From IMG/VR virus record IMGVR_UViG_3300009514_000374, positions 32,001-96,000 of that record: a DNA stretch of 64,000 nucleotides. One strand, 5' to 3'. Under the pieces are notes generated by a model. The model was not told where the DNA came from. It did no database searches and was given only the letters and a program-made list of their open reading frames with translations. Positions 8,770-51,647 of this stretch are shown here, in pieces (the stretch's first letter is position 1; every line of letters starts with the position of its first letter). The DNA comes from a virus. A program made the position numbers and the translations under genes.

Positions 8770-9551
8770 TGCCGAAGATTCTTTTCACTGGACCCTCGCG
8801 TAAGCGGAAGCGGATCAAGCGGAAGCTGATCGAGGAAATGGAGCACCCGGAACTGCGGGTCGCGTCTCGATACCTCCAAGCGCGTGGGATGTACGACGAG
8901 GCGGAGCGGGAGCTTCGCAAGAAAGACCCGGATGGCTTCTGCATGGCGTTGCCGGGGACGGTCGTGTTTCAGCACTTGAATCTGAGCCCGCGCGGCAAGG
9001 TGATGAAGTGGTTTTCGATCCACGATCCCCCAACAGCCAGCGCCAAGGTCGTTGGGCACATCGCGGGGCTCGTGCAGACGAATGCCACGTTTGTCGTCGG
9101 GGAAGCCGGCTACAAGCAGGTGTCCGTGCTCGACAAGCCCAAGTTTGTGTTCGCCGGGGCGGTCGGAAAGCTCGTCGCCGTGGACGGTGCCGGCGGGGAT
9201 GAATTCGGAACCGTGCCCTCACGGGACCAGGAATGGATCCGATACAACCCCAAAAAGCGCGACGAAGGTCTGATCGCCCGATGGTTCTGCCGCCAGAATC
9301 CTGAGACTGGCGAATGGGACATCCCCGTGATCAAGGCACGTCGCGTGGTCGCACGAGGGCACAGGATCTACGCGAGCGGCATCACGGACATGCCCCGCAA
9401 ACACTACGAGCCGCTGCTTGAGCAGTTGGGGCTTGGCGCCTACCAGGCGGCCTCGATCAAACTGGCACACGAGGACAGCGAGCACGGGCCGCACATCCTC
9501 GCCATTCACCGAGAAGCCTTGCGTGCTCTCGATGGGGAACCAAACACATGA
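8769..9551 (+). CDS. hypothetical phage protein with RVASRY tag and degenerate IKLAH tag
   Basis: TGATG coupling; central domain with a YNP motif of phage-hypothetical type. Confidence 0.7.
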   Translation: MPKILFTGPSRKRKRIKRKLIEEMEHPELRVASRYLQARGMYDEAERELRKKDPDGFCMALPGTVVFQHLNLSPRGKVMKWFSIHDPPTASAKVVGHIAGLVQTNATFVVGEAGYKQVSVLDKPKFVFAGAVGKLVAVDGAGGDEFGTVPSRDQEWIRYNPKKRDEGLIARWFCRQNPETGEWDIPVIKARRVVARGHRIYASGITDMPRKHYEPLLEQLGLGAYQAASIKLAHEDSEHGPHILAIHREALRALDGEPNT

Positions 9552-10600
9552 GTCTCCGCAACAAAGCGATTAAGCTCGCCTACGAAAACCCCGAACTACG
9601 TGATGCGATCCTGCCGATCGTCACGGCCAAGGAGCACGCGACTGAGGACGCCCGCCGCAAGTACCTCCAAGAGCACCCCAAGGCTGATCCGGCGAAGCAC
9701 ACGATCAGGACCAAAAAGCCTCGCAAGAAAAAGGGGCCGTCTGAGAAGGACAAGGAAATCCTCAAGATCTTGGACGAGCACGACAAGGAGCAAGCCTTGC
9801 TCGCAGAAAAAGCCATCGCCGAAAGGGTGAAGGCTGAGCAGGCCAAATCGGACGAACGAGCCAAGGCTCGTGCGGAACGAGCCAAGGGGAAGGCGCCTCC
9901 GCATTTGGAGGGGCTGTCAAAGCACCTCCAAGACGCCGTGGGCAAGATGCCTACCAAGGGCATGGACAAGGAAGAAGCCTACAGCCACCCGAAGATCAAG
10001 GCGATGGCAAAGGCGCTGATGAAGCTCCCACGCGGAACCGTCGCTCGTATGTACGAGCAGCTACAAACTCGGATGCTTGAGCTTGGGCAGCCTGAGAAGC
10101 GCGGAGAACCGGGACGTGATGACGCCTTGAATCAGATTCATGCCGCGTGGCGTGCAACCAACGATGCCCTGTTCACGATGGGAGACGCACACAAGGAACG
10201 CGAAAAGGGCGAGGGCATGGGCAAATACCTTCCACGCGCTGAGTTGAAAAAGCGCCGCAAGGTTGAGCTAGATCTCGACCCCTTGAAAGACCTCCAGGGG
10301 CACAAGAAATCCGATCCGGTCTACAAGGTGCTCAAGGAGTACCGGAACGACGGAAAATACGTTCGGCTCAAGACGTTGGAGAAGGCGATCACGCATCTCG
10401 ACAAGATGCTCGACAACCCGGCTCACGACGGCGACGAGGACAAGATCGAGAAGGCCAAGAAGCTGCTTGAAAGGATCAATCGCGGAGGCCCCGAGTCTCG
10501 TCCGTCGAAAAAGGGCAGCCTTCGCAGCGGTCTGATCCGTCTGGCCCACGCTCGCCCTGACCTCCGTGATCGGCTGCTGCCTCTGCTCGCAAAGGACTAG
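9548..10600 (+). CDS. basic protein carrying LIRLAH-type tags at both termini
   Basis: MSLRNKAIKLAYENPELRDAILPI at the N-terminus and SLRSGLIRLAHARPDLRDRLLPLL at the C-terminus. Confidence 0.8.
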   Translation: MSLRNKAIKLAYENPELRDAILPIVTAKEHATEDARRKYLQEHPKADPAKHTIRTKKPRKKKGPSEKDKEILKILDEHDKEQALLAEKAIAERVKAEQAKSDERAKARAERAKGKAPPHLEGLSKHLQDAVGKMPTKGMDKEEAYSHPKIKAMAKALMKLPRGTVARMYEQLQTRMLELGQPEKRGEPGRDDALNQIHAAWRATNDALFTMGDAHKEREKGEGMGKYLPRAELKKRRKVELDLDPLKDLQGHKKSDPVYKVLKEYRNDGKYVRLKTLEKAITHLDKMLDNPAHDGDEDKIEKAKKLLERINRGGPESRPSKKGSLRSGLIRLAHARPDLRDRLLPLLAKD

Positions 10601-10603
10601 TTT

Positions 10604-12988: not shown

Positions 12989-13036
12989 GTTTCGATCCGA
13001 TCTCGCGCGGCGTAATTGGTACGGAGGCCCGTACCG

Positions 13037-13345
13037 ATGTCCAGCGCATACAACGCACTTTCCGTCCTGACCAAGAGCCCCGTGACTCGCGCGTTCTTGG
13101 AGGCCAACGACCCCAAGGCGCTCGCACAGGCGGACGCTGCCTTGGCTGAGATGGACGCTGAGCGAGACGCCCTGGACGCCCACCTGGACGCCACGGACCC
13201 CGCACGAGCCGAGCACGAGGCGTACATCGCCGATCTGGAGCGGGTCGCCAACCAGGACGCCGAGGATTACATCGAGCAGCTTCACGCGGAGGCCCTGGAG
13301 GCCGACCTGTGGGGCTCGCGGGAGTGGGACAACGCCAACGGCTGA
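13037..13345 (+). CDS. acidic hypothetical protein
   Basis: GGAGG RBS, ATG 13037. Confidence 0.65.
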   Translation: MSSAYNALSVLTKSPVTRAFLEANDPKALAQADAALAEMDAERDALDAHLDATDPARAEHEAYIADLERVANQDAEDYIEQLHAEALEADLWGSREWDNANG

Positions 13346-13391
13346 GTTTCGCTTAGTGCGCGTCTAGCGTTCTAGGTCTGGAGGCAACGAA

Positions 13392-14477
13392 ATGGGACAT
13401 TTCAGCTACATCTGCAAGCACTGTGACCGTCCGATTCTCGACTCGCAGTCCACCTGGCGCGGGCTCAACGAGTGGATGGCGACGACCGTCGTTCTGATGG
13501 CATCCGGCAGCCGCGTCGTCGGCGAGTACGACGGCTACGGTCGTGTCGGCCGTATAGACGCCAACGAGCAGGCCGACGCCGACGAGGGCGTGTGGACGCA
13601 CAAGGCGTGTTGGGAGCAGGCTGGCAAGCCCGAGCACGAGGCGTACACCGGCCCGAGTGTTGGCTGCCAGCACAGCGGGTACGACGAGAAGGATCTCAGG
13701 CCCGAGCCAGGCAAGCCTTTCGACCAGGCCGCATGGGACGCGGCGTTGCAGGAGCGCGCCGACAAGATCCGAGCCGACCTTGTGCGCAAGGCGTGCGAGA
13801 TGGTGAACGACGGGCACTACAACAACGCGGACAGCGTTCGCCGAACCGAGAAGCCCTGGACCCGTCGCTTCCACGTCTACCATTTCGACGGGCAGTACCA
13901 GATCGACCCGAAGAACCCGGAGCCCGCAGGTTGGGTCTGGTATGACGAGTCGCCTGAGATGGGTGGCTACGCCGATGTTCCAGCGATGCGCGACGACCCC
14001 AAGCATGGGCCTCAGATCCAGTCAGGGGGCACCTGCGAAACCGAGGCGGAAGCCGAGGCCGCGTGCAAGGCCCGGTGGGATGCCTGGATGCAGAGCGACG
14101 AGCTTGCTCAGATGAAGCGCGAGCGTGCGGCCACCTTGCGCAAAAGGAGCCTGGAGCGCGCCAAGGAGTTGCTGATCGAGGGCGAGGATCGCTACGAGGT
14201 GACCGACTACGGCCCCGCTCCGGCACGCTTGGAGGCGCTGCTTGACGAAAAGGAGAAGCTCACCGCCGCCATCGACACCCTGAACGGCGCGCAAGTGGCT
14301 CGCCTCGGTGAGATCAACGACGAGATCGCCAACACCCCGCGTTGGGGTGTCTACGATCGCGCGGATTTCCGTGGCGAGGACGGCGACGAGGACGACCGCT
14401 ACGTCCTCACGGGCGCGACCGAAGACGATGCCAAGGCCCACGCTGCCGATCTGAACCGCATCTGGCGCGGGGCGTGA
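13392..14477 (+). CDS. hypothetical protein with N-terminal CxxC
   Basis: GGAGG RBS; MGHFSYICKHC...HKAC possible Zn site. Confidence 0.7.
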   Translation: MGHFSYICKHCDRPILDSQSTWRGLNEWMATTVVLMASGSRVVGEYDGYGRVGRIDANEQADADEGVWTHKACWEQAGKPEHEAYTGPSVGCQHSGYDEKDLRPEPGKPFDQAAWDAALQERADKIRADLVRKACEMVNDGHYNNADSVRRTEKPWTRRFHVYHFDGQYQIDPKNPEPAGWVWYDESPEMGGYADVPAMRDDPKHGPQIQSGGTCETEAEAEAACKARWDAWMQSDELAQMKRERAATLRKRSLERAKELLIEGEDRYEVTDYGPAPARLEALLDEKEKLTAAIDTLNGAQVARLGEINDEIANTPRWGVYDRADFRGEDGDEDDRYVLTGATEDDAKAHAADLNRIWRGA

Positions 14478-14530
14478 AACGGCGATGTTCCACGGGGAAC
14501 GTCTCGACTCGGCTTGAATGATCCTCACCT

Positions 14531-15208
14531 ATGTCCTTGTTCGCACGAGAGTTTTGGAGGCGCCGCCGCTGGCGGCTCACGAGCCGGTTTCCCTGGCTCG
14601 TGCGGCCGTGGTCGAGCTACAACGGTCGGTACGAGATCGAGCGGGCCGGGAGGGAGTACAGGCTGTGGGATCGCACCGAGCGGGGCCGATGCTTGTGCTC
14701 GGGCTCGTTCGATGCGTGTGCGGCTGCGGCCGAGGCCGATTCGCCGGGGCTGGTGATCTCACCGGACTACCTCGTGTACGACCGGGGGCGCTACGTGTGG
14801 GACAAGGGCAGGAGCAACGTGGCGTGGGCCATCGCGCTCGGGATGCTCAAGATGGTCCTGAGCAGGCCAGAGGTCCATCGTCTCGTGCTTCTCGTGGGTT
14901 TGCCGGGCTCGGGCAAGACGACGTGGCTCGCCGCTCAGGCGGAGTCTGGAGCCGTCTACCTGGACGCCACGAATCTCAGGCGGACCTACCGGACCAAGCT
15001 CGTGAAGCTCGCCCACAAGGCAGGCAAGCCGACCGAGGCCGTCGTGTTCTCCACGCCCTTGGCGGTGTGCGCGGAGCGCAACGCGCTCAGGCCCGTAGAC
15101 AGGCGCATCCCCGACGAGGCCATGGAGAGACTGGCTGGACAGTGGGAGCCCATCGAGGCTGATGAAGCCCTCTCAGGGGTCGTGACGGTCCCCTACGCGG
15201 AAATTTGA
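14531..15208 (+). CDS. polynucleotide-kinase-like (AAA_33-type) P-loop protein
   Basis: GLPGSGKT, DATN, CAERN...IP. Confidence 0.65.
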   Translation: MSLFAREFWRRRRWRLTSRFPWLVRPWSSYNGRYEIERAGREYRLWDRTERGRCLCSGSFDACAAAAEADSPGLVISPDYLVYDRGRYVWDKGRSNVAWAIALGMLKMVLSRPEVHRLVLLVGLPGSGKTTWLAAQAESGAVYLDATNLRRTYRTKLVKLAHKAGKPTEAVVFSTPLAVCAERNALRPVDRRIPDEAMERLAGQWEPIEADEALSGVVTVPYAEI

Positions 15209-15560
15209 CGCCCTTCCGGGCCAGGTGTAGTCCTCTTGGTCCCCGGTGGGGCGAGTATGTAGGAACGGAAAGCCGAAGCCGGTCACCACAACAAACCAAT
15301 TAGGAGATCCTTAGTAAAAGGATCCTACCTATCACTCACAATCACAATCACTCTGAAAATCACGATCCTCGACCTGATCTTCTACACCTTCATTGTCATC
15401 TATACGGTCCTACTCGTGAAACTCTTGGGAGGCCGGACTCGATCCGACTGTACCCACCCCCTACAACTTGTCGTCTAGCCCCTTGCGGGCTCCGGTTGCT
15501 GGACGGCCAACCGTGAACAACTGAAACCACGCCTGATTGCTGGAATTTCCAGGGATCTGG

Positions 15561-15572
15561 TAGGGCTCCTAT
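15561..15572 (+). promoter_or_regulatory. candidate late promoter TA-N6-CTAT
   Basis: TAGGGCTCCTAT 15 nt before ATG 15588. Confidence 0.5.
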
Positions 15573-15587
15573 CGCCTGCCTTTAGCG

Positions 15588-16793: not shown

Positions 16794-16993
16794 CCGACGA
16801 GCAAAAAGAGACTCCCCAAAAGGCCGCCGATCCCAAGGATGACCCCGATGTCGTGTGGATGTCCTGTCGCGCGTCCGAGAAATGCCCCGGCAACTACGCC
16901 AAGATCTCGCGCAAGTGGAAAGGCGACAGCGGCGGCGCTGCGGTGCGCTACACCTGCACGACCTGCAAGCGTCCCTTCCACGTTAATTTCTGA
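16790..16993 (+). CDS. small zinc-ribbon protein
   Basis: C-x5-C ... CTTC; ATGA coupling. Confidence 0.65.
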   Translation: MTDEQKETPQKAADPKDDPDVVWMSCRASEKCPGNYAKISRKWKGDSGGAAVRYTCTTCKRPFHVNF

Positions 16994-17016
16994 CCGCGCT
17001 GGCGTAACGGTCAGAC

Positions 17017-41035: not shown

Positions 41036-41047
41036 TAGCCGTCCTAT
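41036..41047 (+). promoter_or_regulatory. candidate late promoter TA-N6-CTAT
   Basis: TAGCCGTCCTAT just after the terminator, 27 nt before ATG 41075. Confidence 0.55.
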
Positions 41048-41074
41048 CCTGCTGATCGGTAGGAGACTTTGCCG

Positions 41075-41950: not shown

Positions 41951-42259
41951 ATGCCGTCGAAGCCCTCAGAACGCCGCGTGATCATGGCGAAAAAGGTTGC
42001 CGCCGATTGGCTGGCTAACAACGCCTCGGCCGAATACCGTTTCCGTGTCTACCACAACGCGGACGCGGGGGTATTCGTGAACCTGCTTCGGGGCTTCCGT
42101 GACAACCGGGTAAAGCTCGCGGGCGTAGATCCGATTCCTGACCTTGGGCTCAAGAACGAGGTCAGTGGCTTCACCATTTGGTCGTCGGACTGGTCGGCAC
42201 TCCAATCACTCAAGACCTTCTTGGAAAAGAGGGGCATGGATACGTCGTGGATTTGGTGA
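41951..42259 (+). CDS. hypothetical protein with KKVAADW tag
   Basis: First ORF of the late operon. Confidence 0.65.
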   Translation: MPSKPSERRVIMAKKVAADWLANNASAEYRFRVYHNADAGVFVNLLRGFRDNRVKLAGVDPIPDLGLKNEVSGFTIWSSDWSALQSLKTFLEKRGMDTSWIW

Positions 42260-42262
42260 CCG

Positions 42263-42691
42263 ATGGCCTTGACTCTGATCGAATCCGCGTTCACCTACCG
42301 CTCCGAATTTGGAGGGGAGATCTGGCAATTCACTGTCGTCAACAACCAGAACGCAACGCAAGGTATCCGCGAGATCATCGGACCCTTCGGGCTCGTCCGT
42401 GACACGCAGACGCAGATCCCCGGCTTCGTTCTTGACGACCAATCAACTGCCATCGGGCAGGTGGAGAATCTCTTGGCACAAACATCAGCGGTAAACGGCA
42501 TCCTGACCTTCGCGGGTGAAACGTCCAAGACAGTTACGTTCTCCACCCCCATGGTCAACACGAACTACAGGGTGATCCTCAGTGTCGGGGATTTCGTGCC
42601 CTTCCGAATCCAATTCAAGAGCCTCACGCAGTTTGTGGTCGAGGCGGGCATCACCTTCACCGGCACAGTCGGCTTCGACGTGTTCGTATAG
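42263..42691 (+). CDS. virion structural protein (fibre-tip-like C-terminus)
   Basis: VTFSTPM..TNY.V beta-sandwich pattern shared with the end of 43456-45108. Confidence 0.55.
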   Translation: MALTLIESAFTYRSEFGGEIWQFTVVNNQNATQGIREIIGPFGLVRDTQTQIPGFVLDDQSTAIGQVENLLAQTSAVNGILTFAGETSKTVTFSTPMVNTNYRVILSVGDFVPFRIQFKSLTQFVVEAGITFTGTVGFDVFV

Positions 42692-42699
42692 GAGACACC

Positions 42700-43446
42700 A
42701 TGAGCCTACGCAACGATTTGATCCGACTCGCCCACGTTGACCCCGAGATCCGTGAGGCCGTCATGCCCATGCTCAGCAAGCAGGCTTTCGACACCGACCA
42801 GGAGCGGCTGCTCGACGCGATCGTTCTAGCTGCGGAGAACGAGGGCCGGTTCTACGACAAACGCGATGCCAAGGGGGCGGTGGACGCCGCGTGGAAAACC
42901 CATCGCAAGGCGACCATCGAAGATTTCGACCACGATTTCAACGCGATCAAAAAAGAGGCCATCAAACAGGTCCGTAAATCGTGGGGGCGTAAGCCCAAGA
43001 AGGCCACTCTCCATTCCAAGCTCGTCCGCCTTGCCCACGCGCAGCCCGAGCTACGCGACGTTCTGATGCCACTGCTCGTTGCGCCGACTCTCACGTTCGG
43101 CAAGGCTGCGGCGGAGCAACGGCCACGCCCCTACGCGGACGAGGATTCGGTGGTTGAGCGGTTGCACGCGGAGCTTTACAAGCTCGCAGAGCAACATCGC
43201 CTTGGTAACGGCCGAGCCCCGGATGGCACGGGAGCCCTGGAGTACCAGATCCGGTTCCTGCGAGCGTCTTCGCACCGTTCGCTTCCCTGGATCTACGACC
43301 ACATTATCCACACGGCCAACTCTGCGATGGCGCAGTCCCCTGTGTTGGAGCCGGTCGCCAAAAAGGTGATCAAAGAAGCCGAAGCTCGGGCGAAGGAATG
43401 GGCCGAGCGCGACCTCGCCCGCCGAACAAAGCGGACGCACGCATAG
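42700..43446 (+). CDS. protein with two LIRLAH-type tags
   Basis: MSLRNDLIRLAHVDPEIREAVMPML and TLHSKLVRLAHAQPELRDVLMPLL. Confidence 0.8.
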   Translation: MSLRNDLIRLAHVDPEIREAVMPMLSKQAFDTDQERLLDAIVLAAENEGRFYDKRDAKGAVDAAWKTHRKATIEDFDHDFNAIKKEAIKQVRKSWGRKPKKATLHSKLVRLAHAQPELRDVLMPLLVAPTLTFGKAAAEQRPRPYADEDSVVERLHAELYKLAEQHRLGNGRAPDGTGALEYQIRFLRASSHRSLPWIYDHIIHTANSAMAQSPVLEPVAKKVIKEAEARAKEWAERDLARRTKRTHA

Positions 43447-43455
43447 AGGTAACAG

Positions 43456-45108
43456 ATGGCGCAACCACCATACCAAGTAGACGCCCTAGAGATCGTTGGC
43501 GATAGCGGCCTCGGGTCGCGCCTGATCGAGTCGGGTGCGACGGATGGGACGTTGCGTTTCACCGATACCAAGGTCACCTCCCTTGCGCTGTACGAGCTTA
43601 CCGGGCTCCAGCAAATTGGCGGCGTCATTGTTCTCGGCAAGAGCGGTTCGGGTCGAACCAAGGACGTGGAAGGTAACGAGATCGACACCTTCCAAAAGGC
43701 GTTCGATGCTGTCCCCACGTCGGCAAGCGCAACGAGCCCTTGGGTCGTGCTTGCGATGTCTGGCGTCTACACCGAGGACGTGTTGCTGGAGAAGGATGGC
43801 GTCGAGGTCTTGGGCTTCGGCAACGTCGTCCTGACCAACGCTACGCCGGGTGCCCATACGCTCACGATCGTGGAAGGCCCCTTCTCGGTCCCCAAGCGGG
43901 TTCGTTTCCGTGGGGTTCGCATCGAGAACACGAGCGCTACCGAGGCGTGTGTGCGTCTCACGTCGGCCCTGTTCGCTACAGGCACGGTGACGGTTGCCAC
44001 GGTCCCGTTCGTCGGAGACACGTTCACCGTCTCGGCTACGACGCTCACGGCGGTTGCCAACGGGACGACCCCGGTGGTCGGCGAGTTTGAGCTTGGGACG
44101 GACACGGCCTCTACGGCTGTGAACCTGGCGGCTGCACTCAACGACCCGTTGAATGGCCTGACGACGACCATTCAGGCGTTCGTAGTGGGCAGCGTCGTGA
44201 CGCTCAAGGCGTTCACGCCGGGGCTTGTGGGGAACGCGATTACCATAGCGACCTCTGTGCCCATCGTTCTCGTCCTGTCGGGAGCTTCCCTGGCGGGTGG
44301 GCTCGATTCGGCAGCGGGCTCGACCCTGGCCGATGATCGGATCGATTTCGACGGTTGCGACCTCGTGGCGTCTGGCGTGACCGGGTTCCAGATGATCGCT
44401 GAGTCGGTCAACAACATCTCCATCGTCGGTGGGAATTCAGCCGGGTCAAGTTCCGGCTCGGCCATTCGGGTCCGTGAGTGTGCGAGCTTTGAGGCCAAGG
44501 ATGTCGAGAACCTGGAGATCCTTGACCTGCGGTACGACACCGTGGGCGGAGGGCCGATCCCGAGCGTTGCCACGTCGAGCTACGTGCTGGACGAGCTTTC
44601 GGCCGGCGGCACCCTGACCGGCGCTTTCGACGGTGGCGTGGGCAGCCTGACCATCACAGGGGGCACCTATGCGGGCACCTTGACCTGTACGACTACGGGC
44701 GGAGAGGCTCTTGTAACGACGGGAGGCGCGAGCTTTGGGGCTGTGACCCTGGCGGGCTCCGGCCCCGCGAGCCTCAACCACGTCGCCTGTCCTGGCGTGC
44801 TGACGGTTGGAGGCACGGTTGCTGCCGTGTCGAGGAATTCGGCATGGGGTAGCTTTTTGGGCGCCGGGACGCTCGACATCGACGTGTTTCAGATGTCCGT
44901 GCCGTTTGTGGCCGTCGCTTCGGTGCCTGTTGTGTTCCCGGTGGCACAGCCCGACACGGCCTATCACGTCTACCTCGATTCTGGCCTTGGGGCAGCCGCA
45001 GCTATCACCGATGTGCCGGGAACGTCAGCACGGACGACAGCCGGCTTCTCGCTTGATTTCGGTGCGGCCCAAACAACGACGGTGGGCGTCACCGTGCGGA
45101 GGATCTAA
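43456..45108 (+). CDS. virion fibre/structural protein (beta-helix-like)
   Basis: Gly/Thr/Ala/Val-rich; FQKA.D...GVYTE start; TA.NLAAALN module. Confidence 0.65.
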   Translation: MAQPPYQVDALEIVGDSGLGSRLIESGATDGTLRFTDTKVTSLALYELTGLQQIGGVIVLGKSGSGRTKDVEGNEIDTFQKAFDAVPTSASATSPWVVLAMSGVYTEDVLLEKDGVEVLGFGNVVLTNATPGAHTLTIVEGPFSVPKRVRFRGVRIENTSATEACVRLTSALFATGTVTVATVPFVGDTFTVSATTLTAVANGTTPVVGEFELGTDTASTAVNLAAALNDPLNGLTTTIQAFVVGSVVTLKAFTPGLVGNAITIATSVPIVLVLSGASLAGGLDSAAGSTLADDRIDFDGCDLVASGVTGFQMIAESVNNISIVGGNSAGSSSGSAIRVRECASFEAKDVENLEILDLRYDTVGGGPIPSVATSSYVLDELSAGGTLTGAFDGGVGSLTITGGTYAGTLTCTTTGGEALVTTGGASFGAVTLAGSGPASLNHVACPGVLTVGGTVAAVSRNSAWGSFLGAGTLDIDVFQMSVPFVAVASVPVVFPVAQPDTAYHVYLDSGLGAAAAITDVPGTSARTTAGFSLDFGAAQTTTVGVTVRRI

Positions 45109-45683
45109 TGAGCGGACAAGACGATTTCTGGAGCGACCTGAGCCTGAGCCCCTTCACGGGGCCAACCTCGATGGATCACCATCTGTCGGAGGATACGATC
45201 GGTGGCCCTAAGTTCTCCTCGCTGCAAGACCTGACCGACCGAGGACGGGATGCGAATGGGCTGGACCTTGGGGTTCCCGCTGGCACGCGCGTTGTGGCCG
45301 TCACGAACATCGGTTCGGTCCTGACACACCCCGATCTCCCCGAGCCTGACGTGGAGGGCACGGTCGTCACGGTGCGCACGGCTCAGGGCGACCTGACCAG
45401 TCTCAACGACGAGGTTTTCGTCAAGTGGGACGACGGTAAGCTCCGCGCCATCCACAGACATTTCCTGCGTCGTGCAAAGACGAGTCGCAAGCGCGCGTCG
45501 GCGTTTTGCGTTCGCGCCAGCGGCATCGGAGACATCAGCCAGTTTTTCACTCGTGCGAACGATGGGAAGGCGAACGACCTCGTTCACAAGAGCACGAAAG
45601 ACCTGTGGAGCTTTGAGCAGAGCGACGACGGGATCGTGATTTCTCGTCTGTTCGATGACACCGGGGAACCCTTGAAAGGCTAG
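45108..45683 (+). CDS. hypothetical virion-associated protein
   Basis: SH3-like GTRV...GTV...VFVKWDDG, then a KRA junction. Confidence 0.65.
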   Translation: MSGQDDFWSDLSLSPFTGPTSMDHHLSEDTIGGPKFSSLQDLTDRGRDANGLDLGVPAGTRVVAVTNIGSVLTHPDLPEPDVEGTVVTVRTAQGDLTSLNDEVFVKWDDGKLRAIHRHFLRRAKTSRKRASAFCVRASGIGDISQFFTRANDGKANDLVHKSTKDLWSFEQSDDGIVISRLFDDTGEPLKG

Positions 45684-45685
45684 CC

Positions 45686-46951
45686 GTGAACATCGGCAAT
45701 CCACTTAGCTGGTCCCTTGAGGGGATGAATGCCCGCAACTTGCGGCCGGGGGATCCTCGTATCTCGTGGATGTACTACGACGACGACAATTGGGAGTTTG
45801 AGGCGCACGCGGAACGAAACGAGCGCGAAGATCGTCGTCTGATCGGGTTCCACCTATTCGTGCGGCCAAAGGGTGCTGATCTTGACGAGCGGAAACGGAT
45901 CAAATTCGATCTCCCCAACGAGCGCACTGTGGCGCGTACCGCTGAACAGTGGCTTCGCCAACACGGGCGCACTGCTAAGGCGCCCAAGGTACCAAAGCCA
46001 ACCAAGAGGCTGACACCCAAGGCCCCTCCGAAAGCCAAGCCCGCCAAGGCGCCCAAGGCCCCGAAGCCCAAGAAGGCGCCTTCTCCCGTGCAAAAAGCTG
46101 TGCGCACGGTTCAAAAGGGCGTTCGGCAGTTTGAACGGGGGCGGTCTAAATCACCAGCGGCGAAGGGGATCCGCACCCTCACACAGCTTGGGGAGCGTGC
46201 GCACGGTTTGCTGATGCAGCACAAGGGAGACACGGATCTCTCTATAGGAAACCCCCGTACAGGAGCGCCAATGACGCAAATCGATCCATCTCGGCTCGCC
46301 GAACGCCATGAATGGCGGGAATTGGCGCGTGAAGCGGAGCCTTTGCTCTCCGAAGCCAAGGCGATTCTCAAGGCCGAGGGTCGAATCAAGGCCGCGAATC
46401 GGATCAAACTCGCTGGCGAGGTCATTTTCAAAAAGGATCGCGGAGGCGACAAGGACCAGTGGGCCTACGCCGACGTGGCCCCGTCCGAGCGCATGGTGCC
46501 CGGCGATTTCAATTTCTCGCCCAAGAACGCCAAGCCGCTCGCCAAAGTGCTTCGCGCGAGCCTGGCCGCGCTCGGGCATGTTCTGTCGGCGTACCACACC
46601 TTCGCCAAGATCAAGAGTGCGCGGGTAAGCCCTGACGGTAACCTCGGCGGCAAGGGCTACATCCAGAAAATCGCCGACATGCGGCGACAGTACATGAATG
46701 TCGTGGAAGCGTTGTCGGCTCTGACCGACACGATCTACGACGAGGTTCACGCCCCACATTGGGCTGCGGTTTCTCGCCAAGAGGACCCGCAGGACGCGGC
46801 TCAGGTGAAGGAGATGCTCGGCGACGCCGAGGAAATCCGTGAGGATCCCGAAGGGTGGGCCAAGGATCAGATCAAAGACGAATTCGGTGACGACCAAGGT
46901 GCAAAGAAAACTGCGTCCTTGGAAGCCGCCTATTGGGAAGGTGTCGTATGA
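45686..46951 (+). CDS. multidomain hypothetical protein with Lys/Pro/Ala linker
   Basis: KAPK repeats; internal AGGAG-ATG at 46271. Confidence 0.65.
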   Translation: MNIGNPLSWSLEGMNARNLRPGDPRISWMYYDDDNWEFEAHAERNEREDRRLIGFHLFVRPKGADLDERKRIKFDLPNERTVARTAEQWLRQHGRTAKAPKVPKPTKRLTPKAPPKAKPAKAPKAPKPKKAPSPVQKAVRTVQKGVRQFERGRSKSPAAKGIRTLTQLGERAHGLLMQHKGDTDLSIGNPRTGAPMTQIDPSRLAERHEWRELAREAEPLLSEAKAILKAEGRIKAANRIKLAGEVIFKKDRGGDKDQWAYADVAPSERMVPGDFNFSPKNAKPLAKVLRASLAALGHVLSAYHTFAKIKSARVSPDGNLGGKGYIQKIADMRRQYMNVVEALSALTDTIYDEVHAPHWAAVSRQEDPQDAAQVKEMLGDAEEIREDPEGWAKDQIKDEFGDDQGAKKTASLEAAYWEGVV

Positions 46952-48894
46952 CCGCCAAGCTGCCGACCGACGAGAACACCCCGGACATGGGGTCCAGCTT
47001 TCTTCTGGACACCTTCGATTTCGCCGATGAAATGAACGAGGGCGTTCTCGACGGAGCCGCGCAGCCGGAAGCCTACGGGCTCTCGGGACTCCCTGACGGT
47101 GTGGTGACGAGCGAGGGACACGAGGACCTTGACGTTCCCGATTTCTTGCAAGACACCGAGGAAGGAATGGACCTCGGAGAGCTTGGGATGCTTGCCAGTG
47201 TTTCTGGGCTCCCCCAAGACGAGGACTCTGAGGATCGAGCCCATCAGGACAATGTATCCAACGTGGTCGATTTCTCCTGGCTGGAGGACACCCATCAGGA
47301 TCCCGGCCGTCTCCCCAACCTCAACACGACAACCGTGATCCCCGAGCTTGTTGAGGCATGGGGCACGCGCACCGATGGGATTGAGCGTGTTCCGATGCAG
47401 GAGCACTCGGCAAGCGTCGAGCCCAAAAAGGCTTCCAACGCGGACCTCCGCCGGGTGCTGGCTCGTGCGATGCGTCGTTCGGCCTATGGCGACAACATGG
47501 ACGAGATCAAGGTGGAGATCGTCCGTGACCTCGGCCACGAGGCGAAGCGTGTTGCCAAGGCAGTGAAGGCCATGGAGGCTGAGCACGGCCTGGTCGGCAA
47601 CGTCTACATCCGTGCGACTGCGTTCCCTGGTATCGACCAGGCCAAGTGGGCCAAGCACGTCAAGGCCAAGTGCCCAAATGCCCGTTACCTGATTGCGTGT
47701 GGCTCGTGCGATGCGTGCAAGGGCGGGTGCCCCAAGGACTGTGCCTGCAATCGTTCGCTCGGCCTCAAGGCGGTCGCCAGCGTTCCGTGGGACAAGGCTT
47801 ACGACCACTACGCCCCGCAGTTGGAGATCACGGGTCGGCTCGATCGCATGGCGACCGTGATGGACAAGCGCCTGTCACTCCGCCAAGCGTTCCTGTCTCC
47901 AACCCGAGATACCAGCGCGAAGATCTACGACGAGCGGCCGATCCACAAGACCCCGGTTGAGCGCGTCACGATGGCCGAGGCCAAGGCCGAGTTCGCTGCT
48001 GCGCAACCGGAGGCCCGAGAGGTCGTTCGCCAAGCTGAGCGAGCCCACGCGGCCAAGGTCAAGAAGGTCCAAGCCAAGCTCGGCCAGTGGGTCAAGGCCA
48101 GTCTGCTTTCGGCGGACGAGGCCAAGAAGCTGCTCACCGCTTCCGCGAAGCAGCCCGAGGCGGTTCTGAAAGCTGCGAGCCGTGTCATCACTGCCCGTAA
48201 GAAGCAGGCGTCTTACCAAGGCGACGGCAAGCACTACGACCCCCGCGTGTCGGCGAAGGCCGCCTTCGCTGAGCTTCGGGAGGCCGCACAAGCGCCCGAG
48301 GATCCGGCCTTCCCCAAGCTGGCTGGCGAAACGCTCCACGAGGCCCAAAAGATGATCCGGTACGCCCGTCAGGCGATGTCGGAAGGCTTCATGGGCAAGG
48401 ATCTGAAAGACCTGCTCGCGGGTCGGTTCAGCAAGAAGCTCCGCAAGGCTGCCAAGGAGCAGCTTGTCCAGATCCGCAAGCAACACGAGGGCCTGTCGGG
48501 TGTCGCGTATGTGGACACGGCGGCCTACGCCTCCAAGACGGGAGCGACGGGTTGTGAGCAGGGCGCGGCGAAGCACCGCGCCAACGCCATCCCAACCGCC
48601 CTGGAGATGGATCGGTGTGCCTCGTGCGTGTACCGCAACCAGGACAACCGCTGCCAAAAGTACAACAAGCCGCTCGTCGCTTCCGCTCCCGTGAAGGACG
48701 AGAAAAAGTACCAAGCGGAGCAGATTCGTTTGGCGGACGCGCCCGACCAAGAGGTCACGGCGTCGATGTTCAGCCCGAGTGAATTCGATCTGACCAACAA
48801 CAACTTGGAGGATTTCTCCATCCAAGATGCGCCTGCGCTGGACGACCTCGCCGAGTACACGTTCGGGGGCACGATCATGCACGACGAGGGGTAA
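46948..48894 (+). CDS. protein with two Cys-rich repeats and acidic ends
   Basis: EHGLVGNVYI...Cys cluster and HEGLSGVAYV...Cys cluster. Confidence 0.7.
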   Translation: MTAKLPTDENTPDMGSSFLLDTFDFADEMNEGVLDGAAQPEAYGLSGLPDGVVTSEGHEDLDVPDFLQDTEEGMDLGELGMLASVSGLPQDEDSEDRAHQDNVSNVVDFSWLEDTHQDPGRLPNLNTTTVIPELVEAWGTRTDGIERVPMQEHSASVEPKKASNADLRRVLARAMRRSAYGDNMDEIKVEIVRDLGHEAKRVAKAVKAMEAEHGLVGNVYIRATAFPGIDQAKWAKHVKAKCPNARYLIACGSCDACKGGCPKDCACNRSLGLKAVASVPWDKAYDHYAPQLEITGRLDRMATVMDKRLSLRQAFLSPTRDTSAKIYDERPIHKTPVERVTMAEAKAEFAAAQPEAREVVRQAERAHAAKVKKVQAKLGQWVKASLLSADEAKKLLTASAKQPEAVLKAASRVITARKKQASYQGDGKHYDPRVSAKAAFAELREAAQAPEDPAFPKLAGETLHEAQKMIRYARQAMSEGFMGKDLKDLLAGRFSKKLRKAAKEQLVQIRKQHEGLSGVAYVDTAAYASKTGATGCEQGAAKHRANAIPTALEMDRCASCVYRNQDNRCQKYNKPLVASAPVKDEKKYQAEQIRLADAPDQEVTASMFSPSEFDLTNNNLEDFSIQDAPALDDLAEYTFGGTIMHDEG

Positions 48895-48897
48895 ACC

Positions 48898-49227
48898 GTG
48901 TCTCTACGCAAGAAACTGATTCGACTCGCTCACCAGAAACCTGAGCTTCGCCCTCACTTGCTGCCGCTGCTCAAGACGGCGATGTACGGCAAGGCGTGGA
49001 TCACGAATTTCAACCGGGCCACGAACATGCTGTGGGTCGGCGTGCAGGGCTACGACGGCATGGTTCGGATGTCGATCAGTGGATCGGGCATGGTCACGTC
49101 GCATGGGCGCCATCCCTCACAGGTGTCTCACAAAGCGCACCAGATCGTTTCCAAGTTTCGGAATGAAGGATTCCCTCGCATTCCACCGCACGGCCACTGG
49201 CCGCCCGAGGTGAAGCCGGACAAATGA
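48898..49227 (+). CDS. LIRLAH-tagged small protein
   Basis: MSLRKKLIRLAHQKPELRPHLLPLLKTA + ~80-aa domain. Confidence 0.75.
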   Translation: MSLRKKLIRLAHQKPELRPHLLPLLKTAMYGKAWITNFNRATNMLWVGVQGYDGMVRMSISGSGMVTSHGRHPSQVSHKAHQIVSKFRNEGFPRIPPHGHWPPEVKPDK

Positions 49228-50519
49228 CCAAGCAGGCATATTGGGAAGGGGTAGACCCCCTTCCCGGCGGCAACATGGACGAGGGCGACATCCACACTTG
49301 TCGGTCCCTGCTTGTCGATGTGCTCGCGTGCCTACGTGCTCAGTCGTGGAACTACCAGACGGCTCACTGGCAGACGGCCGGTGTGCCTGCCTACGGCAAC
49401 CACCTGCTCTTTGAGCGCCTCTACAAATCGGTTCAAGACGAGATCGATACGCTTGCGGAGAAGCTCGTTGGCTACTTTGGCCTCCATGCTGTTGACCCAT
49501 GCGACGTGATGGACAGGGCTCACAAGCTCGTCAAGCAGTGGAAGGCGTATTCGACCTGCCATGTCGAGCGTGGGCTCCACGCCGAGGAACATTTCCAATC
49601 GGGCGTGTCCAATGCGTACCACCAGATCAAGCAGAAGGGGCGCATGACCCTCGGGCTTGACGATTTTCTGATGGCGGCTGCGAACAACCACGAGTCGCAC
49701 ACGTACCTGCTCCAGCAGCTTCTCGTGGACATAAACAAGCTCAACGACGCCTACAAGGAGATGGGCGAGGCTCCGTACAAGGACATGACTCCGCCGTACA
49801 AGACGGCCACGCTGGAGGACGGCGTGGACTGGAGTGCGTGGAAGGGCCTCGATGGCAAGTGGAACATCGAGGGCGATGTGACCGCCGCTGAGTTGGAGCG
49901 CGTTGAGGGATTGATCAAGGCCGACCTTTCCGAAAAGTGCGGCACGCCGCACGGCGGGTGGGGTGGTGAGATGTCCTCGATGGAAAAATCGTGGGGAGGC
50001 TTCTCGTCCTTTCGTCCGGTGCGCCGTGGAGAGCGCGAGGATCAGATCCCTGGCGGTCTTGGCGACAAGGCCAAGACGGACGATTTTGATATTGAGCAAG
50101 TGCTGAAAGGAGTCGATGTCGAGCTTGAGCACACGACCGACCCTGACATCGCCCTGGAGATCGCACTTGATCATCTCACCGAGCACGACGACTACTACAC
50201 GCGACTGGAGAAGGTAGAGAAGCACGCGGCCATTGGTGACCGTGCTGCACCCTCTGTCGAATACTTGTTCCGCGACGATCCCAAGCGCTACGAGTTGACG
50301 GAATTCGTCAAATCGAAAGCCGTGACCAACCTCGACAATGACCCGGCGACACCGCCAACGCCCGTAGAGATCAAGGACGAGCCCGGAGGTAAGGCTCTCT
50401 CTACTTTGCATCGGTACGTGGTCGATACCGAGGAACCCGCTGCTAAGGATGCAGAGGGCATCGAGGAACACCCACCCCTGTCCGATTTCAAGGACTGGAC
50501 GACCGTGAGAGAGAAATAA
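49224..50519 (+). CDS. Dps/ferritin-like domain fused to a DUF5661-like domain
   Basis: AHW..AG.....H.LFE.LY......D.LAE Dps motif; G.DVELEH...IALDHL.E..DYY.RL. Confidence 0.7.
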   Translation: MTKQAYWEGVDPLPGGNMDEGDIHTCRSLLVDVLACLRAQSWNYQTAHWQTAGVPAYGNHLLFERLYKSVQDEIDTLAEKLVGYFGLHAVDPCDVMDRAHKLVKQWKAYSTCHVERGLHAEEHFQSGVSNAYHQIKQKGRMTLGLDDFLMAAANNHESHTYLLQQLLVDINKLNDAYKEMGEAPYKDMTPPYKTATLEDGVDWSAWKGLDGKWNIEGDVTAAELERVEGLIKADLSEKCGTPHGGWGGEMSSMEKSWGGFSSFRPVRRGEREDQIPGGLGDKAKTDDFDIEQVLKGVDVELEHTTDPDIALEIALDHLTEHDDYYTRLEKVEKHAAIGDRAAPSVEYLFRDDPKRYELTEFVKSKAVTNLDNDPATPPTPVEIKDEPGGKALSTLHRYVVDTEEPAAKDAEGIEEHPPLSDFKDWTTVREK

Positions 50520-51098
50520 ATGTCCGTTGAAAAGCTATTTCCAAGCATCCATGCTCGCGGTGGCGCACAGCCCCCTTTCACGATCCTCGTCGCCAACCTG
50601 ACCTCGCCGGGCGACCCGAGTGTGGGTCGCAACCCCGTGCGGGCTCGTAACGGGTTCCGGCAGCAGAACACAACCCCTGTGGGCCATGCTCCGCATGGCA
50701 CGGTGGTTGGAGCGCGTACCGGGACACTGCTCGGCGGCGCCTTCACTCGTAGCGGGGGCACTGTCACGATCGCCAGCGACGATTTCACTGTCCCGGCCGA
50801 GGTACTGGTCGGCCCGTTCGTACTCGTGACTGACGAGGATTTCGATGCGGATGGCCTTGGGGTCAACGTCGTGGCAACCAATCTTGCGGCGGCCATTGAT
50901 GCCCTGCCTGGCTACAATGCCGTCGCGGCTCTCGCTGTCGTCACGGTGACGGGGCCGCTTGGCGCCAAGATCGATCCGATCGCACAGCGTTGGCAGTTCC
51001 GCACGTTTGGTGCGGTTGCCAACTTTACCACCATCACGCCTGACGGCGGGTTCCTGACGGGAGGGCTGCCCGAGCCGAGGGCGATGGAGATTCTGTGA
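50520..51098 (+). CDS. virion structural protein
   Basis: ATNLAAAID module like that in 43456-45108. Confidence 0.55.
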   Translation: MSVEKLFPSIHARGGAQPPFTILVANLTSPGDPSVGRNPVRARNGFRQQNTTPVGHAPHGTVVGARTGTLLGGAFTRSGGTVTIASDDFTVPAEVLVGPFVLVTDEDFDADGLGVNVVATNLAAAIDALPGYNAVAALAVVTVTGPLGAKIDPIAQRWQFRTFGAVANFTTITPDGGFLTGGLPEPRAMEIL

Positions 51099-51647
51099 AT
51101 GCTTCCGCCGTGGGTTCGACCTCCCGATGCTTCTTGGACGGAGAAGCAGGTAGCCAAGGCGATCCTTCGGCATCTCAGTCCCGATCTGCTGCACAAGGAT
51201 TGGGGGCCAGGCGGCAAGCACTACAAGCCAGGGCGGCACGAGCATTTCGGGTACTGCAACGTCGCCAGTCAAGCCTTCTACTGGCTGATGGGTGCCCGCG
51301 AGGCGGGCTACAAGGCCATGCGGGTGAAGCACGAGGGAGGCACCCATTGGTGGATCCAGTCTCCCAAAGGCAAGGTCTGGGATCTGACCAAAGAGCAATT
51401 CACGACCCCTGTGCCTTACGCCCAAGGGCGTGCGGCGGGGTTCCCCGGCCGAGGGTATTTCCCGACCCTCGCTGCCAAGAAACTGATTGAGAAGGCTCGG
51501 GCCGACCTGGAGAGACGAGGCAAAAAAGCTATGAAAGACCTACGCAAGAACCTGATCCGCCTCGCGCATTCCAAGCCCGAGCTTCGCGCTGATCTGCTTC
51601 CGTTGATCACGGCTGCCGACCCGACCAAATCAAAGATGGTGCGCTGA
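51099..51647 (+). CDS. papain/transglutaminase-like Cys-His-Asp protein with C-terminal LIRLAH tag
   Basis: GYC.VAS, THWW, WDLT..QF; MKDLRKNLIRLAHSKPELRADLLPLI. Confidence 0.65.
   Translation: MLPPWVRPPDASWTEKQVAKAILRHLSPDLLHKDWGPGGKHYKPGRHEHFGYCNVASQAFYWLMGAREAGYKAMRVKHEGGTHWWIQSPKGKVWDLTKEQFTTPVPYAQGRAAGFPGRGYFPTLAAKKLIEKARADLERRGKKAMKDLRKNLIRLAHSKPELRADLLPLITAADPTKSKMVR

What the first reader, a model, noticed from the sequence alone, without database searches (positions are those of the whole stretch)
9548..51617. 27-aa LRxxLIRLAHxxPELRxxLLPLL tag in six copies on four unrelated proteins
Copies: 9548-9628 MSLRNKAIKLAYENPELRDAILPIVTA; 10517-10597 SLRSGLIRLAHARPDLRDRLLPLLAKD; 42700-42786 MSLRNDLIRLAHVDPEIREAVMPMLSKQA; 43006-43083 TLHSKLVRLAHAQPELRDVLMPLLVA; 48898-48981 MSLRKKLIRLAHQKPELRPHLLPLLKTA; 51531-51617 MKDLRKNLIRLAHSKPELRADLLPLITAA. 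A degenerate copy lies at 9441-9506 in a fifth protein. The motif is conserved at protein level with diverged codons and appears N-terminal, internal or C-terminal. It looks like a helix-Pro-helix hairpin. Position independence suggests a docking module rather than part of a fold.
Basis: partly seen in the sequence, partly recalled or inferred. Interest (0 to 1): 0.88.

Follow-up and report, generated by a model that had tools for sequence, protein, structure and literature searches.

The report
Portable peptide tag of huge phages
A 28-residue helix-turn-helix peptide is attached to many unrelated accessory proteins of an abundant clade of huge phages; it matches no known family and is most likely a docking signal, perhaps one that loads proteins into the phage head.

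Summary
All six copies are at the stated coordinates (49-56 bits each; next-best six-frame hit 11 bits). They are conserved as protein and sit on four proteins with unrelated flanks. The "degenerate seventh copy" is not significant.

The window is part of a 141-kb fragment of a huge phage. That record holds 15 copies on 9 proteins. A profile of the tag finds 3,658 protein clusters in metagenomes. Pfam, PHROGs, NCBIfam and PDB sequences do not match it.

- **Relatives:** genomes sharing a >91% identical capsid protein carry from 0 to 22 tags.
- **Carriers:** tagged genes are accessory insertions between conserved genes.
- **Portability:** one cargo domain family occurs with and without the tag, so the tag is an add-on.
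- **Fold:** AlphaFold2 models the tag as a helix-turn-helix.
- **Flanks:** K-x-A-[SA] abuts the tag and is most enriched in the scaffolding protein, so it is probably the head-protease site.

Best reading (about 40%) is a capsid-loading peptide trimmed during head maturation. Binding is untested because the complex predictor was unavailable. Other first-stage notes saw the same tag in overlapping windows of this genome, not on other DNA.

The parts
9548..9628 (+). Tag copy 1, exact N-terminus of the 350-aa protein
   Evidence: 53 bits in the six-frame HMM scan; 58 bits with the whole-record model
9626..9718 (+). Companion motif 2 (AKEHxxxxARxKYLQEHPKADPxxHT[IV]), 10 residues after tag copy 1
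   Evidence: Shared with the 1238-aa carrier. In the metagenome set, 19 of 24 occurrences lie 10-16 residues after a tag
10517..10597 (+). Tag copy 2, exact C-terminus of the same 350-aa protein
   Evidence: 49 bits
9548..10600 (+). Carrier p350: tag, motif 2, K/E-rich helical body, tag
   Evidence: ORF; no Pfam, PHROG or NCBIfam family
42700..42786 (+). Tag copy 3, N-terminus of the 248-aa protein
   Evidence: 56 bits
43006..43083 (+). Tag copy 4, internal (residues 102-130) in the same 248-aa protein
   Evidence: 53 bits
42700..43446 (+). Carrier p248. It is absent from the syntenic position in the 485-kb relative
   Evidence: Synteny comparison
48898..48981 (+). Tag copy 5, N-terminus (GTG start) of the 109-aa protein
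   Evidence: 54 bits
48898..49227 (+). Carrier p109. Its cargo domain is an orphan, and the gene is absent from the relative
51531..51617 (+). Tag copy 6, near the C-terminus (residues 146-174) of the 182-aa protein
   Evidence: 52 bits. AF2 pLDDT is 90-96 over the tag; helices 124-158 and 160-172
51099..51647 (+). Carrier p182: transglutaminase/papain-like Cys53-His83-Asp95 domain (YunG-like, phrog_12251), helical linker, tag
   Evidence: invariant C/H/D in the family alignment. VIA-align matches to NAT, LapG, PeiW, TglA and TGase at Z 4.4-5.5 over 89-109 residues are weak but all from one superfamily. Homologues occur with and without the tag
9441..9506 (+). Claimed degenerate copy at the C-terminus of the 270-aa L5-gp82-like protein. 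Not significant; at most a decayed relic
   Evidence: 3.4 bits, E=5.5
41036..41062 (+). Promoter-like motif TA-N6-CTAT-N12-TAG at the head of the gene string that holds p248, p109 and p182
   Evidence: 5 strict copies on the coding strand of the record and 0 on the other, against about 0.3 expected
41951..54380 (+). Tightly packed co-directional gene string (junctions from -19 to +9 nt) that holds p248, p109 and p182 and runs into TerS-like and TerL genes
   Evidence: ORF coordinates. No excess of terminator-like sites and no sigma-70-like promoters. TerL; portal follows at 54980-56980

Best explanation
The tag is a portable helix-turn-helix peptide of about 28 residues. Its consensus is [K]-x-[A/M]-S-L-R-x-x-L-I-R-L-A-[H/Y]-x-[N/K]-P-E-L-R-x-x-L-L-P-L-L-K-x-A.

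Shown here:
- It is an add-on module fused by charged, linker-like segments to the N-terminus, C-terminus or domain junctions of fast-turning-over accessory proteins.
- It occurs in an abundant clade of huge phages.

Inferred mechanism:
- The tag's hydrophobic face and its conserved basic residues (R4, R9, R18, K26) dock onto a conserved core component of the assembling head. This would be the unusually conserved HK97-type capsid protein or the very acidic scaffold.
- Tagged proteins are thereby co-packaged into the procapsid as cargo.
- K-x-A-[S/A] sites border the tag and are inferred to be the prohead-protease cleavage motif. Cleavage there would free the cargo from the tag during maturation.
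- Multi-tag proteins made only of tags and charged linkers would bind several sites at once.

Functionally this would resemble the T4 capsid-targeting sequence, the P22 scaffold's coat-binding helix-turn-helix, and encapsulin or microcompartment loading peptides.
For: Module status (strong):
- The record holds 15 copies on 9 unrelated proteins.
- The tag profile finds 3,658 cluster representatives. Among the best 150 proteins, 348 tags are N-terminal (112), C-terminal (52) or internal (184).
- The p182 domain family occurs with and without the tag.
- AF2 gives a helix-turn-helix: pLDDT 77 in a natural tag-linker-tag protein and 90-96 in p182.
- Carriers are 56-59% disorder-promoting residues, and the tag has a net charge of +2.7.

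Effector-like behaviour:
- Tagged genes are indels between syntenic core genes of close relatives.
- Tag counts are 0, 1, 3, 11 and 22 in genomes sharing a >91% identical MCP.

Partner is probably a core component:
- The presence/absence profile found no accessory gene that tracks the tags.
- The MCP is 91-95% identical across genomes that share only about 60 genes and range from 45 to 61% GC. This parallels the tag's own conservation.

Protease link:
- K-x-A-[SA] abuts the tag upstream in 21% of cases and follows it in 5%, against 0.16% background.
- The scaffold is the most enriched protein in G000 (p=3.5e-6) and G001 (p=4.8e-7) and ranks second in W01 (p=1.5e-5).
- The MCP has an invariant K-L-A-A at residue 24, and there are no sites in protease, portal, TerL or clamp loader.
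- In W01, 9-10 of 11 tags are at the exact N-terminus and most are followed by K-E-A.

Context:
- p248, p109 and p182 sit in a tight gene string leading into TerS, TerL and portal.
- The largest carrier has two ParB/Srx-like modules. That domain type is reported in head-packaged polyvalent proteins such as P1 DdrB (PMC5512222).

Precedents: T4 CTS and giant-phage propeptides (PMC10052503); P22 scaffold HTH 268-303 binding coat electrostatically (PMC9962691).
Against: - No binding was tested or shown.
- No virion proteomics exists for any tag-bearing phage, and the one cultured relative (Tunturi_5) has no tags.
- The clade's own scaffold and protease do not carry the tag.
- Tags are not enriched near the MCP gene: 16 tags in 703 kb of MCP flanks, which is about the genome average.
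- A complete 376-kb relative with a 92% identical MCP has no tags at all, so the system is dispensable.
- In this record the K-x-A-[SA] rate in carriers is only 1.4 times the proteome rate. The bordering residues may simply be helix caps that belong to the tag.
- Proteins made of nothing but tags and linkers are not obvious cargo.
- The ParB assignment is marginal: 22-24 bits against a cutoff of 23.6, and E=0.23 to a ParB/Srx-fold kinase in the PDB.
Confidence: 0.4

Rival explanations
1. The tags bind each other. The helical hairpins pair into four-helix bundles. Multi-tag proteins with charged disordered linkers would then act as multivalent 'sticker and spacer' scaffolds, and single-tag proteins as clients. 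The result would be a condensate or network such as a replication factory or inner-body-like mass, not direct docking onto the shell.
For: - Many carriers are only tag, charged linker, tag, with up to 5 tags among the best 150 proteins.
- G004 has almost only one such double-tag protein.
- Each helix has about 5 conserved hydrophobic residues, more than a lone hairpin needs.
- AF2 gives the 63-aa tag-linker-tag protein a pTM of 0.55, and its weak Foldseek hits are compact helical domains aligned over 58-66 columns.
- No dedicated receptor gene was found.
Against: - Coordinates and PAE were not available, so tag-tag packing in the model could not be verified.
- The net charge of +2.7 per tag disfavours simple self-association.
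- In W01 nearly all carriers have a single N-terminal tag.
- This reading does not explain the bordering K-x-A-[SA] sites.
Confidence: 0.2
2. The tag docks onto a hub that is not part of the head. The hub could be a conserved host protein (chaperone, RNA polymerase, protease adaptor, divisome) or a conserved non-structural phage protein. This would concentrate diverse accessory proteins at one cellular site.
For: - The architecture is position-independent and linker-flanked.
- The tag is strongly conserved across phages of 45-61% GC.
- No accessory receptor gene co-varies with the tags.
- Tagged genes also lie outside the head region, for example the cluster at record positions 26.5-32 kb and 41.5 kb.
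Against: - Phages spanning 45-61% GC probably infect different hosts, so a host partner would have to be very conserved.
- There is no candidate.
- This reading does not explain the association with protease-type sites or with the late gene string.
Confidence: 0.18
3. The tag is a small nucleic-acid-binding or membrane-binding amphipathic element. It would be a basic helix-turn-helix that tethers proteins to DNA or to anionic lipids.
For: - Net charge is +2.7, with conserved R4, R9, R18 and K26.
- Both helices are amphipathic, with hydrophobic moments of 1.5-1.7 on the Kyte-Doolittle scale.
- Carriers include ParB-like nuclease modules and Zn-ribbons.
Against: - Residues such as A11, H/Y12, N14, P15, E16 and P23 are conserved too precisely for a generic membrane helix.
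- At about 25 residues, without a third helix, it is short for a DNA-reading HTH.
- There is no match to any HTH family in Pfam.
Confidence: 0.12
4. The tag has no docking role. It would be a solitary LRV/HEAT-like structural repeat or a capping element, spread by domain shuffling among paralogous small proteins.
For: - There is a superficial resemblance to leucine-rich-repeat-variant motifs (A-x-N-P...L-L).
- 2 of 128 carriers also have Pfam LRV domains.
- Other mini-modules are shuffled along with the tag.
Against: - No Pfam LRV or HEAT hit covers any tag in the window proteins at E<=1.
- Tags occur singly, at termini, next to linkers, and not in arrays.
- Carriers are unrelated.
- The same cargo domain occurs with and without the tag.
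Confidence: 0.05

Closest known systems
T4 capsid-targeting sequence (CTS) of internal proteins, and N-terminal propeptides of giant-phage head proteins (SPN3US, phiKZ)
   Same: Both are short peptides on otherwise unrelated proteins. Both are often at the exact N-terminus and are followed by a motif that looks like the prohead-protease site. The carriers are accessory proteins (PMC10052503).
   Different: The T4 CTS is about 10 residues, strictly N-terminal, and ends in the protease site L/I-x-E; the giant-phage protease motif is A-x-E. Here the peptide is a 28-residue helix-turn-helix that also occurs internally, at C-termini and in multiple copies. The putative site is K-x-A-[SA]. There is no sequence similarity, and packaging is unproven.
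P22 scaffolding protein C-terminal coat-binding helix-turn-helix (residues 268-303)
   Same: Similar size and architecture: two short helices joined by a tight turn. Both are basic. The P22 element is used naturally, and in engineering, to bring a polypeptide inside an HK97-fold shell (PMC9962691).
   Different: The P22 element belongs to the scaffold itself. Here the clade's scaffold lacks the tag and has its own conserved C-terminal peptide. No sequence similarity was detected, and binding to the MCP was not tested.
Encapsulin cargo-loading peptides and bacterial-microcompartment encapsulation peptides
   Same: All are terminal, linker-attached short peptides shared by unrelated cargo proteins. 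The shell here has the HK97 fold, as in encapsulins.
   Different: Those peptides are 10-20 residues and their cargo genes usually sit next to the shell gene. Here tags are not enriched near the MCP gene. They can be internal or multiple, and they form a two-helix hairpin.
Polyvalent proteins of phages (Iyer et al. 2017), for example P1 DdrB
   Same: These are large multi-module proteins with ParB/Srx-type nuclease domains. They are thought to be packaged and injected, and to be processed into separate units (PMC5512222). The 1238-aa carrier has two ParB-like modules, each followed by a tag.
   Different: No zincin-like or other processing peptidase domain was found in the carriers examined. 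Most carriers are small, with a single domain or none. The tag itself is not among the families reported for polyvalent proteins in the passages read.

Membership tests
T4-type capsid-targeting sequence / head-protein propeptide | Located at the extreme N-terminus of the carrier | tested here: inconclusive
   112 of 348 tags in the metagenome set are N-terminal, as are 9-10 of 11 in the 485-kb relative. In this record 7 of 15 are N-terminal, 3 C-terminal and 5 internal.
T4-type capsid-targeting sequence / head-protein propeptide | Ends at a prohead-protease cleavage site | tested here: inconclusive
   K-x-A-[SA] borders the tag (21% upstream and 5% downstream, against 0.16% background). It is most enriched in the scaffold and invariant near the MCP N-terminus. 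Cleavage itself is inferred and has not been observed.
T4-type capsid-targeting sequence / head-protein propeptide | Carriers are present in proheads or virions, and the tag is sufficient to target a foreign protein | not testable with these tools
   No cultured tag-bearing phage is available: GenBank phages hold only the uncultured LR745208.1, and Tunturi_5 has none.
P22-type scaffold coat-binding helix-turn-helix | Two-helix hairpin of about 30-36 residues that is net basic | tested here: met
   AF2 helices 6-16/18-29 and 37-50/52-62 in P0141, and 147-158/160-172 in p182. Net charge +2.7.
P22-type scaffold coat-binding helix-turn-helix | Forms the C-terminus of the phage's scaffolding protein | tested here: not met
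   The 430-aa acidic scaffold of this record and its homologues carry no tag.
P22-type scaffold coat-binding helix-turn-helix | Binds the coat protein | not tested
Encapsulin / microcompartment cargo-loading peptides | Short terminal peptide on unrelated cargo, joined by a flexible linker | tested here: met
Encapsulin / microcompartment cargo-loading peptides | Cargo genes adjacent to the shell gene | tested here: not met
   11-12 of 80 MCP-flank loci hold a tag (16 tags in 703 kb), which is about the genome-wide density.
Polyvalent proteins (Iyer 2017) | Large protein that combines several effector domains with a processing peptidase | tested here: inconclusive
   The 1238-aa carrier has two ParB-like modules (marginal Pfam ParBc_2, 22-24 bits, plus the DGHHRWAA motif) but no peptidase domain. 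Most carriers are small.
Pfam LRV / HEAT-like repeats | Match to the family model, and occurrence in tandem arrays | tested here: not met
   No LRV or HEAT hit at E<=1 on the window carriers, and tags are solitary. LRV domains in 2 of 128 carriers were not mapped relative to the tags.

The most novel reading that the evidence does not exclude
An abundant, globally distributed clade of huge phages uses one sequence-defined 28-residue helix-turn-helix as a universal loading tag. The tag would address a variable arsenal of accessory or effector proteins to the inside of an unusually conserved HK97-type capsid. Protease sites on either side of the tag would release the cargo tag-free. This would be the first general, position-independent cargo-loading peptide described for tailed-phage heads.
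Probability: 0.33. Interest if true: 0.85.

Novelty: new variant of a known kind. Interest (0 to 1): 0.7.

Why it matters
How giant phages select the many internal proteins that fill their heads is poorly understood. [quoted passage not shown]

A conserved, portable tag found in thousands of proteins would help in three ways:
- It would give a direct handle to list candidate virion cargo or effectors from sequence alone.
- It would allow loading to be tested with a simple reporter fusion.
- It could be used to load foreign proteins into phage-derived shells.

Even if the partner is not the capsid, this is a large unannotated family of modular phage proteins. It has a clear 'address label plus variable payload' architecture, which is typical of conflict systems.

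Tried and rejected
Tools that could not be used:
- Complex prediction (tag against MCP, alignments A5 and A6) was unavailable, so no binding test was made.
- The genome search does not draw 'relatives' for a virus record.

Leads that failed:
- The presence/absence profile for a dedicated receptor gave one apparent hit, an 83-aa ORF. It is an antisense artefact over a RuvC-like gene. The other candidates are weak or are themselves tagged.
- The protease C-terminal tail 'L-[IV]-R-L-[AG]-K-L-L-S' resembles tag helix 1, but hhalign probability is 3%. The scaffold tail scores 0.15%. Both rejected as evidence.
- Within-genome homogenisation of tags, a possible sign of co-evolution with one partner, holds for LR745208.1 (78% aa identity) but not for this record (56% within, 61% to LR745208.1).
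- Tags are not enriched next to the MCP gene.

Searches that found nothing useful:
- Foldseek on the tag-linker-tag model found nothing at E<=0.001. In the VIA-align search of the p182 model, the tag region matched only generic helical hairpins at Z 4.4-5.0.
- The ESM Atlas search of p350 gave no usable hit.
- The PDB sequence profile search with the tag had a best E of 0.14.
- The p109 cargo domain has no homologue.
- The sigma-70 and terminator scan of 40.8-57.2 kb found nothing above shuffles.
- The 'capsid operon' placed near window 37.3 kb by another first-stage note is really a replication module with clamp, clamp loader and primase. The real head module is at record positions 98.5-103 kb.

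Full report
OBSERVATION

An HMM built from them scores the six at 49-56 bits in a six-frame scan of the window, and the next-best hit is 11 bits. The supposed seventh copy at 9441-9506 scores 3.4 bits (E 5.5) and lacks the invariant P15, R18 and P23. A partial match at 15002 lies in a P-loop kinase and is also noise.

The copies sit on four ORFs:
- p350 (9548-10600), with an N-terminal and a C-terminal tag.
- p248 (42700-43446), with an N-terminal and an internal tag.
- p109 (48898-49227), with an N-terminal tag.
- p182 (51099-51647), with a tag near the C-terminus.

With the tags masked, no carrier resembles another. Codon-position identities of 0.63 / 0.85 / 0.40 (chance 0.30 at position 3), and 3-4 codons per invariant residue, show conservation at the protein level.

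WHAT THE WINDOW IS

The window is bases 32001-96000 of a 141-kb IMG/VR virus record, about 30% complete, 60.7% GC, with genes almost all on one strand. Its TerL is nearest to the uncultured 485-kb phage LR745208.1 (55% identity) and to Tunturiibacter phage Tunturi_5 (28%).

The head module lies just beyond the window at record positions 98.5-103 kb:
- prohead protease, 484 aa;
- a very acidic 430-aa scaffold;
- a 220-aa protein;
- a 290-aa HK97-type MCP, PF25209.

These were located. The MCP defines a very abundant clade: 560 IMG/VR contigs and more than 2,000 protein clusters at about 91-95% identity, with genomes up to 619 kb. Six genomes compared in full share only about 60 genes and range from 45 to 61% GC.

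EXTENT OF THE TAG

The whole record has 15 copies on 9 proteins. Nine copies lie outside the window. Three of these are in a 1238-aa protein with two ParB/Srx-like modules, each followed by a tag.

A profile of the 15 copies finds 3,658 cluster representatives at E<=1e-3 among 1.84 billion proteins, and 316 at E<=1e-10. The best 150 proteins carry 2-5 tags each. Of their 348 tags, 112 are N-terminal, 52 C-terminal and 184 internal.

The logo is [K]-x-[A/M]-S-L-R-x-x-L-I-R-L-A-[H/Y]-x-[N/K]-P-E-L-R-x-x-L-L-P-L-L-K-x-A. Carriers are rich in K, E, D and G (56-59% disorder-promoting residues), and the tag has a net charge of +2.7.

Nothing in Pfam, PHROGs, NCBIfam or the PDB sequences matches the tag. 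Among 50,697 GenBank phage records only LR745208.1 carries it, and Tunturi_5 has none. Most carriers have no Pfam domain. The few that do are diverse: WGR, DUF2958, DUF7007, pentapeptide repeats, Zn-ribbons and LRV.

THE TAG IS AN ADD-ON MODULE

The N-terminal domain of p182 belongs to a family (phrog_12251, YunG-like). In that family p182 and one homologue (60% identity) carry the C-terminal tag. The closest homologue (69% identity) ends right after the domain, and four others also lack the tag.

AF2 folds p182 with pLDDT 88 and pTM 0.82. The model has an alpha/beta domain, then a long helix 124-158 that runs through the linker into tag helix 1. The helix breaks at the conserved Pro, and tag helix 2 spans 160-172. 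The tag itself has pLDDT 90-96.

A natural 63-aa tag-linker-tag protein folds as two helix-turn-helix units with pLDDT 77.

The p182 domain has invariant Cys53, His83 and Asp95. It gives weak but consistent structural matches (Z 4.4-5.5 over 89-109 residues) to transglutaminase/papain-like enzymes: NAT, LapG, PeiW/PeiP, TglA and TGase.

EVOLUTIONARY BEHAVIOUR

In the syntenic comparison with LR745208.1, whose MCP is 92% identical, p248, p109 (together with the neighbouring Dps-like gene) and p182 are all absent. They are precise insertions between conserved genes. Conversely, the relative has a tagged 134-aa gene between its scaffold and MCP region that this record lacks.

Tag counts in relatives:
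- 0 in a complete 376-kb genome;
- 1 weak hit in a 619-kb genome;
- 3 in a 290-kb genome;
- 11 in the 485-kb genome;
- 22 in a 497-kb genome;
- 7-12 in four half-complete genomes.

In LR745208.1, 9-10 of 11 tags are at the exact N-terminus and most are followed by K-E-A. This 'common label plus variable payload' pattern, with fast turnover, is typical of delivered or addressed accessory proteins.

SEARCH FOR THE PARTNER

I fetched five relatives in full and profiled gene presence. No accessory gene is present in the tag-rich genomes and absent from the tag-free ones. The one apparent hit was an antisense artefact. A phage-encoded partner is therefore more likely a core component, or else the tags bind each other or a host factor.

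The MCP stands out for its extreme conservation, which parallels that of the tag. Tags are not enriched near the MCP gene. A resemblance between tag helix 1 and the conserved C-terminal helix of the prohead protease is not significant. The planned tag-MCP complex prediction could not be run.

PROTEASE-SITE LINK (INFERENCE)

K-x-A-[SA] directly abuts the upstream border of the tag in 21% of cases and follows the tag in 5%, against 0.16% per position elsewhere in the carriers.

Proteome-wide, the scaffold is the most enriched protein for this motif in G000 (6 sites, p=3.5e-6) and G001 (6 sites, p=4.8e-7), and ranks second in W01 (5 sites, p=1.5e-5). The MCP has an invariant K-L-A-A at residues 24-27. 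Protease, portal, TerL, clamp loader and the 220-aa protein of this record have none.

This is the pattern expected of the prohead-protease cleavage motif. It would let the tag be cut away from cargo on either side. The enrichment in this record's own carriers is weak (1.4-fold), and the bordering residues may be part of the tag's fold.

CONTEXT

p248, p109 and p182 lie in a tightly packed co-directional string (41951-54380). It is headed by a promoter-like motif at 41036 that is over-represented on the coding strand: 5 copies against about 0.3 expected, and 0 on the other strand. One further copy lies 9 nt upstream of a tagged gene outside the window. The string leads into TerS-like, TerL and portal genes.

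CONCLUSION

The tag is a real, widespread, unannotated, portable helix-turn-helix module.

The best-supported mechanism, at about 0.4, is procapsid targeting of accessory cargo with proteolytic trimming. It would be analogous to the T4 CTS and giant-phage propeptides (PMC10052503), the P22 scaffold HTH (PMC9962691) and head-packaged polyvalent proteins (PMC5512222).

The rival explanations are tag-tag networking, docking on a hub outside the head, DNA or membrane binding, and a purely structural repeat.

Other first-stage notes had seen the same tag in overlapping windows of this same genome and proposed capsid addressing. I found the extra copies independently, before reading those notes. Their K-x-A hint prompted the tests.

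Noticed in passing
record positions 102138-103010 (outside the window; L034:6138-7007): The HK97-type major capsid protein is 91-95% identical across genomes that share only about 60 genes, differ in GC from 45 to 61%, and whose other core proteins are 30-60% identical. This degree of conservation is unusual and unexplained.
   Followed up: partly
window 9626-9718; also the 1238-aa carrier outside the window (L035): A second conserved module of about 30 aa, A-[MK]-E-[HF]-x-[ST]-x-E-A-[LR]-K-K-Y-L-x-E-H-P-x-A-D-P-x-x-H-T-V, follows the tag at a fixed distance of 10-16 residues in 19 of 24 occurrences. No family matches it.
   Followed up: partly
metagenome carriers P0041, P0052, P0072, P0079, P0080, P0082, P0097, P0106; the 215-aa carrier just upstream of the window: A set of other shuffled mini-modules accompanies the tag: 'GCEKLPxGPMRxNCEKKK', 'RFEEGKPADPTxNM..W..KYKDKFK', 'FPPxSIG...GEFTQQEF', and a Cys-containing 'PKGWTxxSxxKFW..LTGDVKHKVTKCIKxME.K.DDPGAFCASLAD' domain.
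   Followed up: no
window 57007-60888: A 1293-aa ORF joins a 2'-5' RNA ligase-like domain to a CCA-adding / poly(A) polymerase head domain. The latter is interrupted by an intein with a LAGLIDADG endonuclease.
   Followed up: no
window 61967-64000 (the ORF continues to record position 97935; 1322 aa): A eukaryotic-type topoisomerase IB catalytic core (PF01028, E=9e-23) lies at the start of a very long ORF.
   Followed up: no
window 49224-50519: A 431-aa protein with a Dps/ferritin-like N-terminal half and a DUF5661 domain lies between p109 and p182. Like them, it is absent from the 485-kb relative.
   Followed up: partly
window 41036 and record positions 3008, 115589, 118305, 135777: The motif TA-N6-CTAT-N12/13-TAG occurs 5 times on the coding strand and never on the other, against about 0.3 expected. 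At least three copies lie within about 10 nt of a gene start. It is a candidate phage promoter.
   Followed up: partly
all 15 tag copies: The E16-L17 pair is encoded almost always as GAG-CTT (12 of 13 and 10 of 14), although other Leu columns use mixed codons. This may be avoidance of the palindrome GAGCTC.
   Followed up: no
window 48898-49227: The public gene call for p109 is 89 aa, so it starts inside the tag. Conservation of the tag shows the GTG at 48898 is the true start. Tag-bearing N-termini may be systematically mis-called.
   Followed up: no
L020:13671-14972 (LR745208.1): A 433-aa ORF inserted between the TerS-like and TerL genes of the 485-kb relative looks by eye like an IS200/IS605-type TnpB transposase (not run against any family library). 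It has no counterpart in this record.
   Followed up: no
L034:7119-9608 (record positions 103119-105611): An 830-aa ORF just downstream of the MCP combines a LAGLIDADG endonuclease domain with a DNA methylase domain.
   Followed up: no
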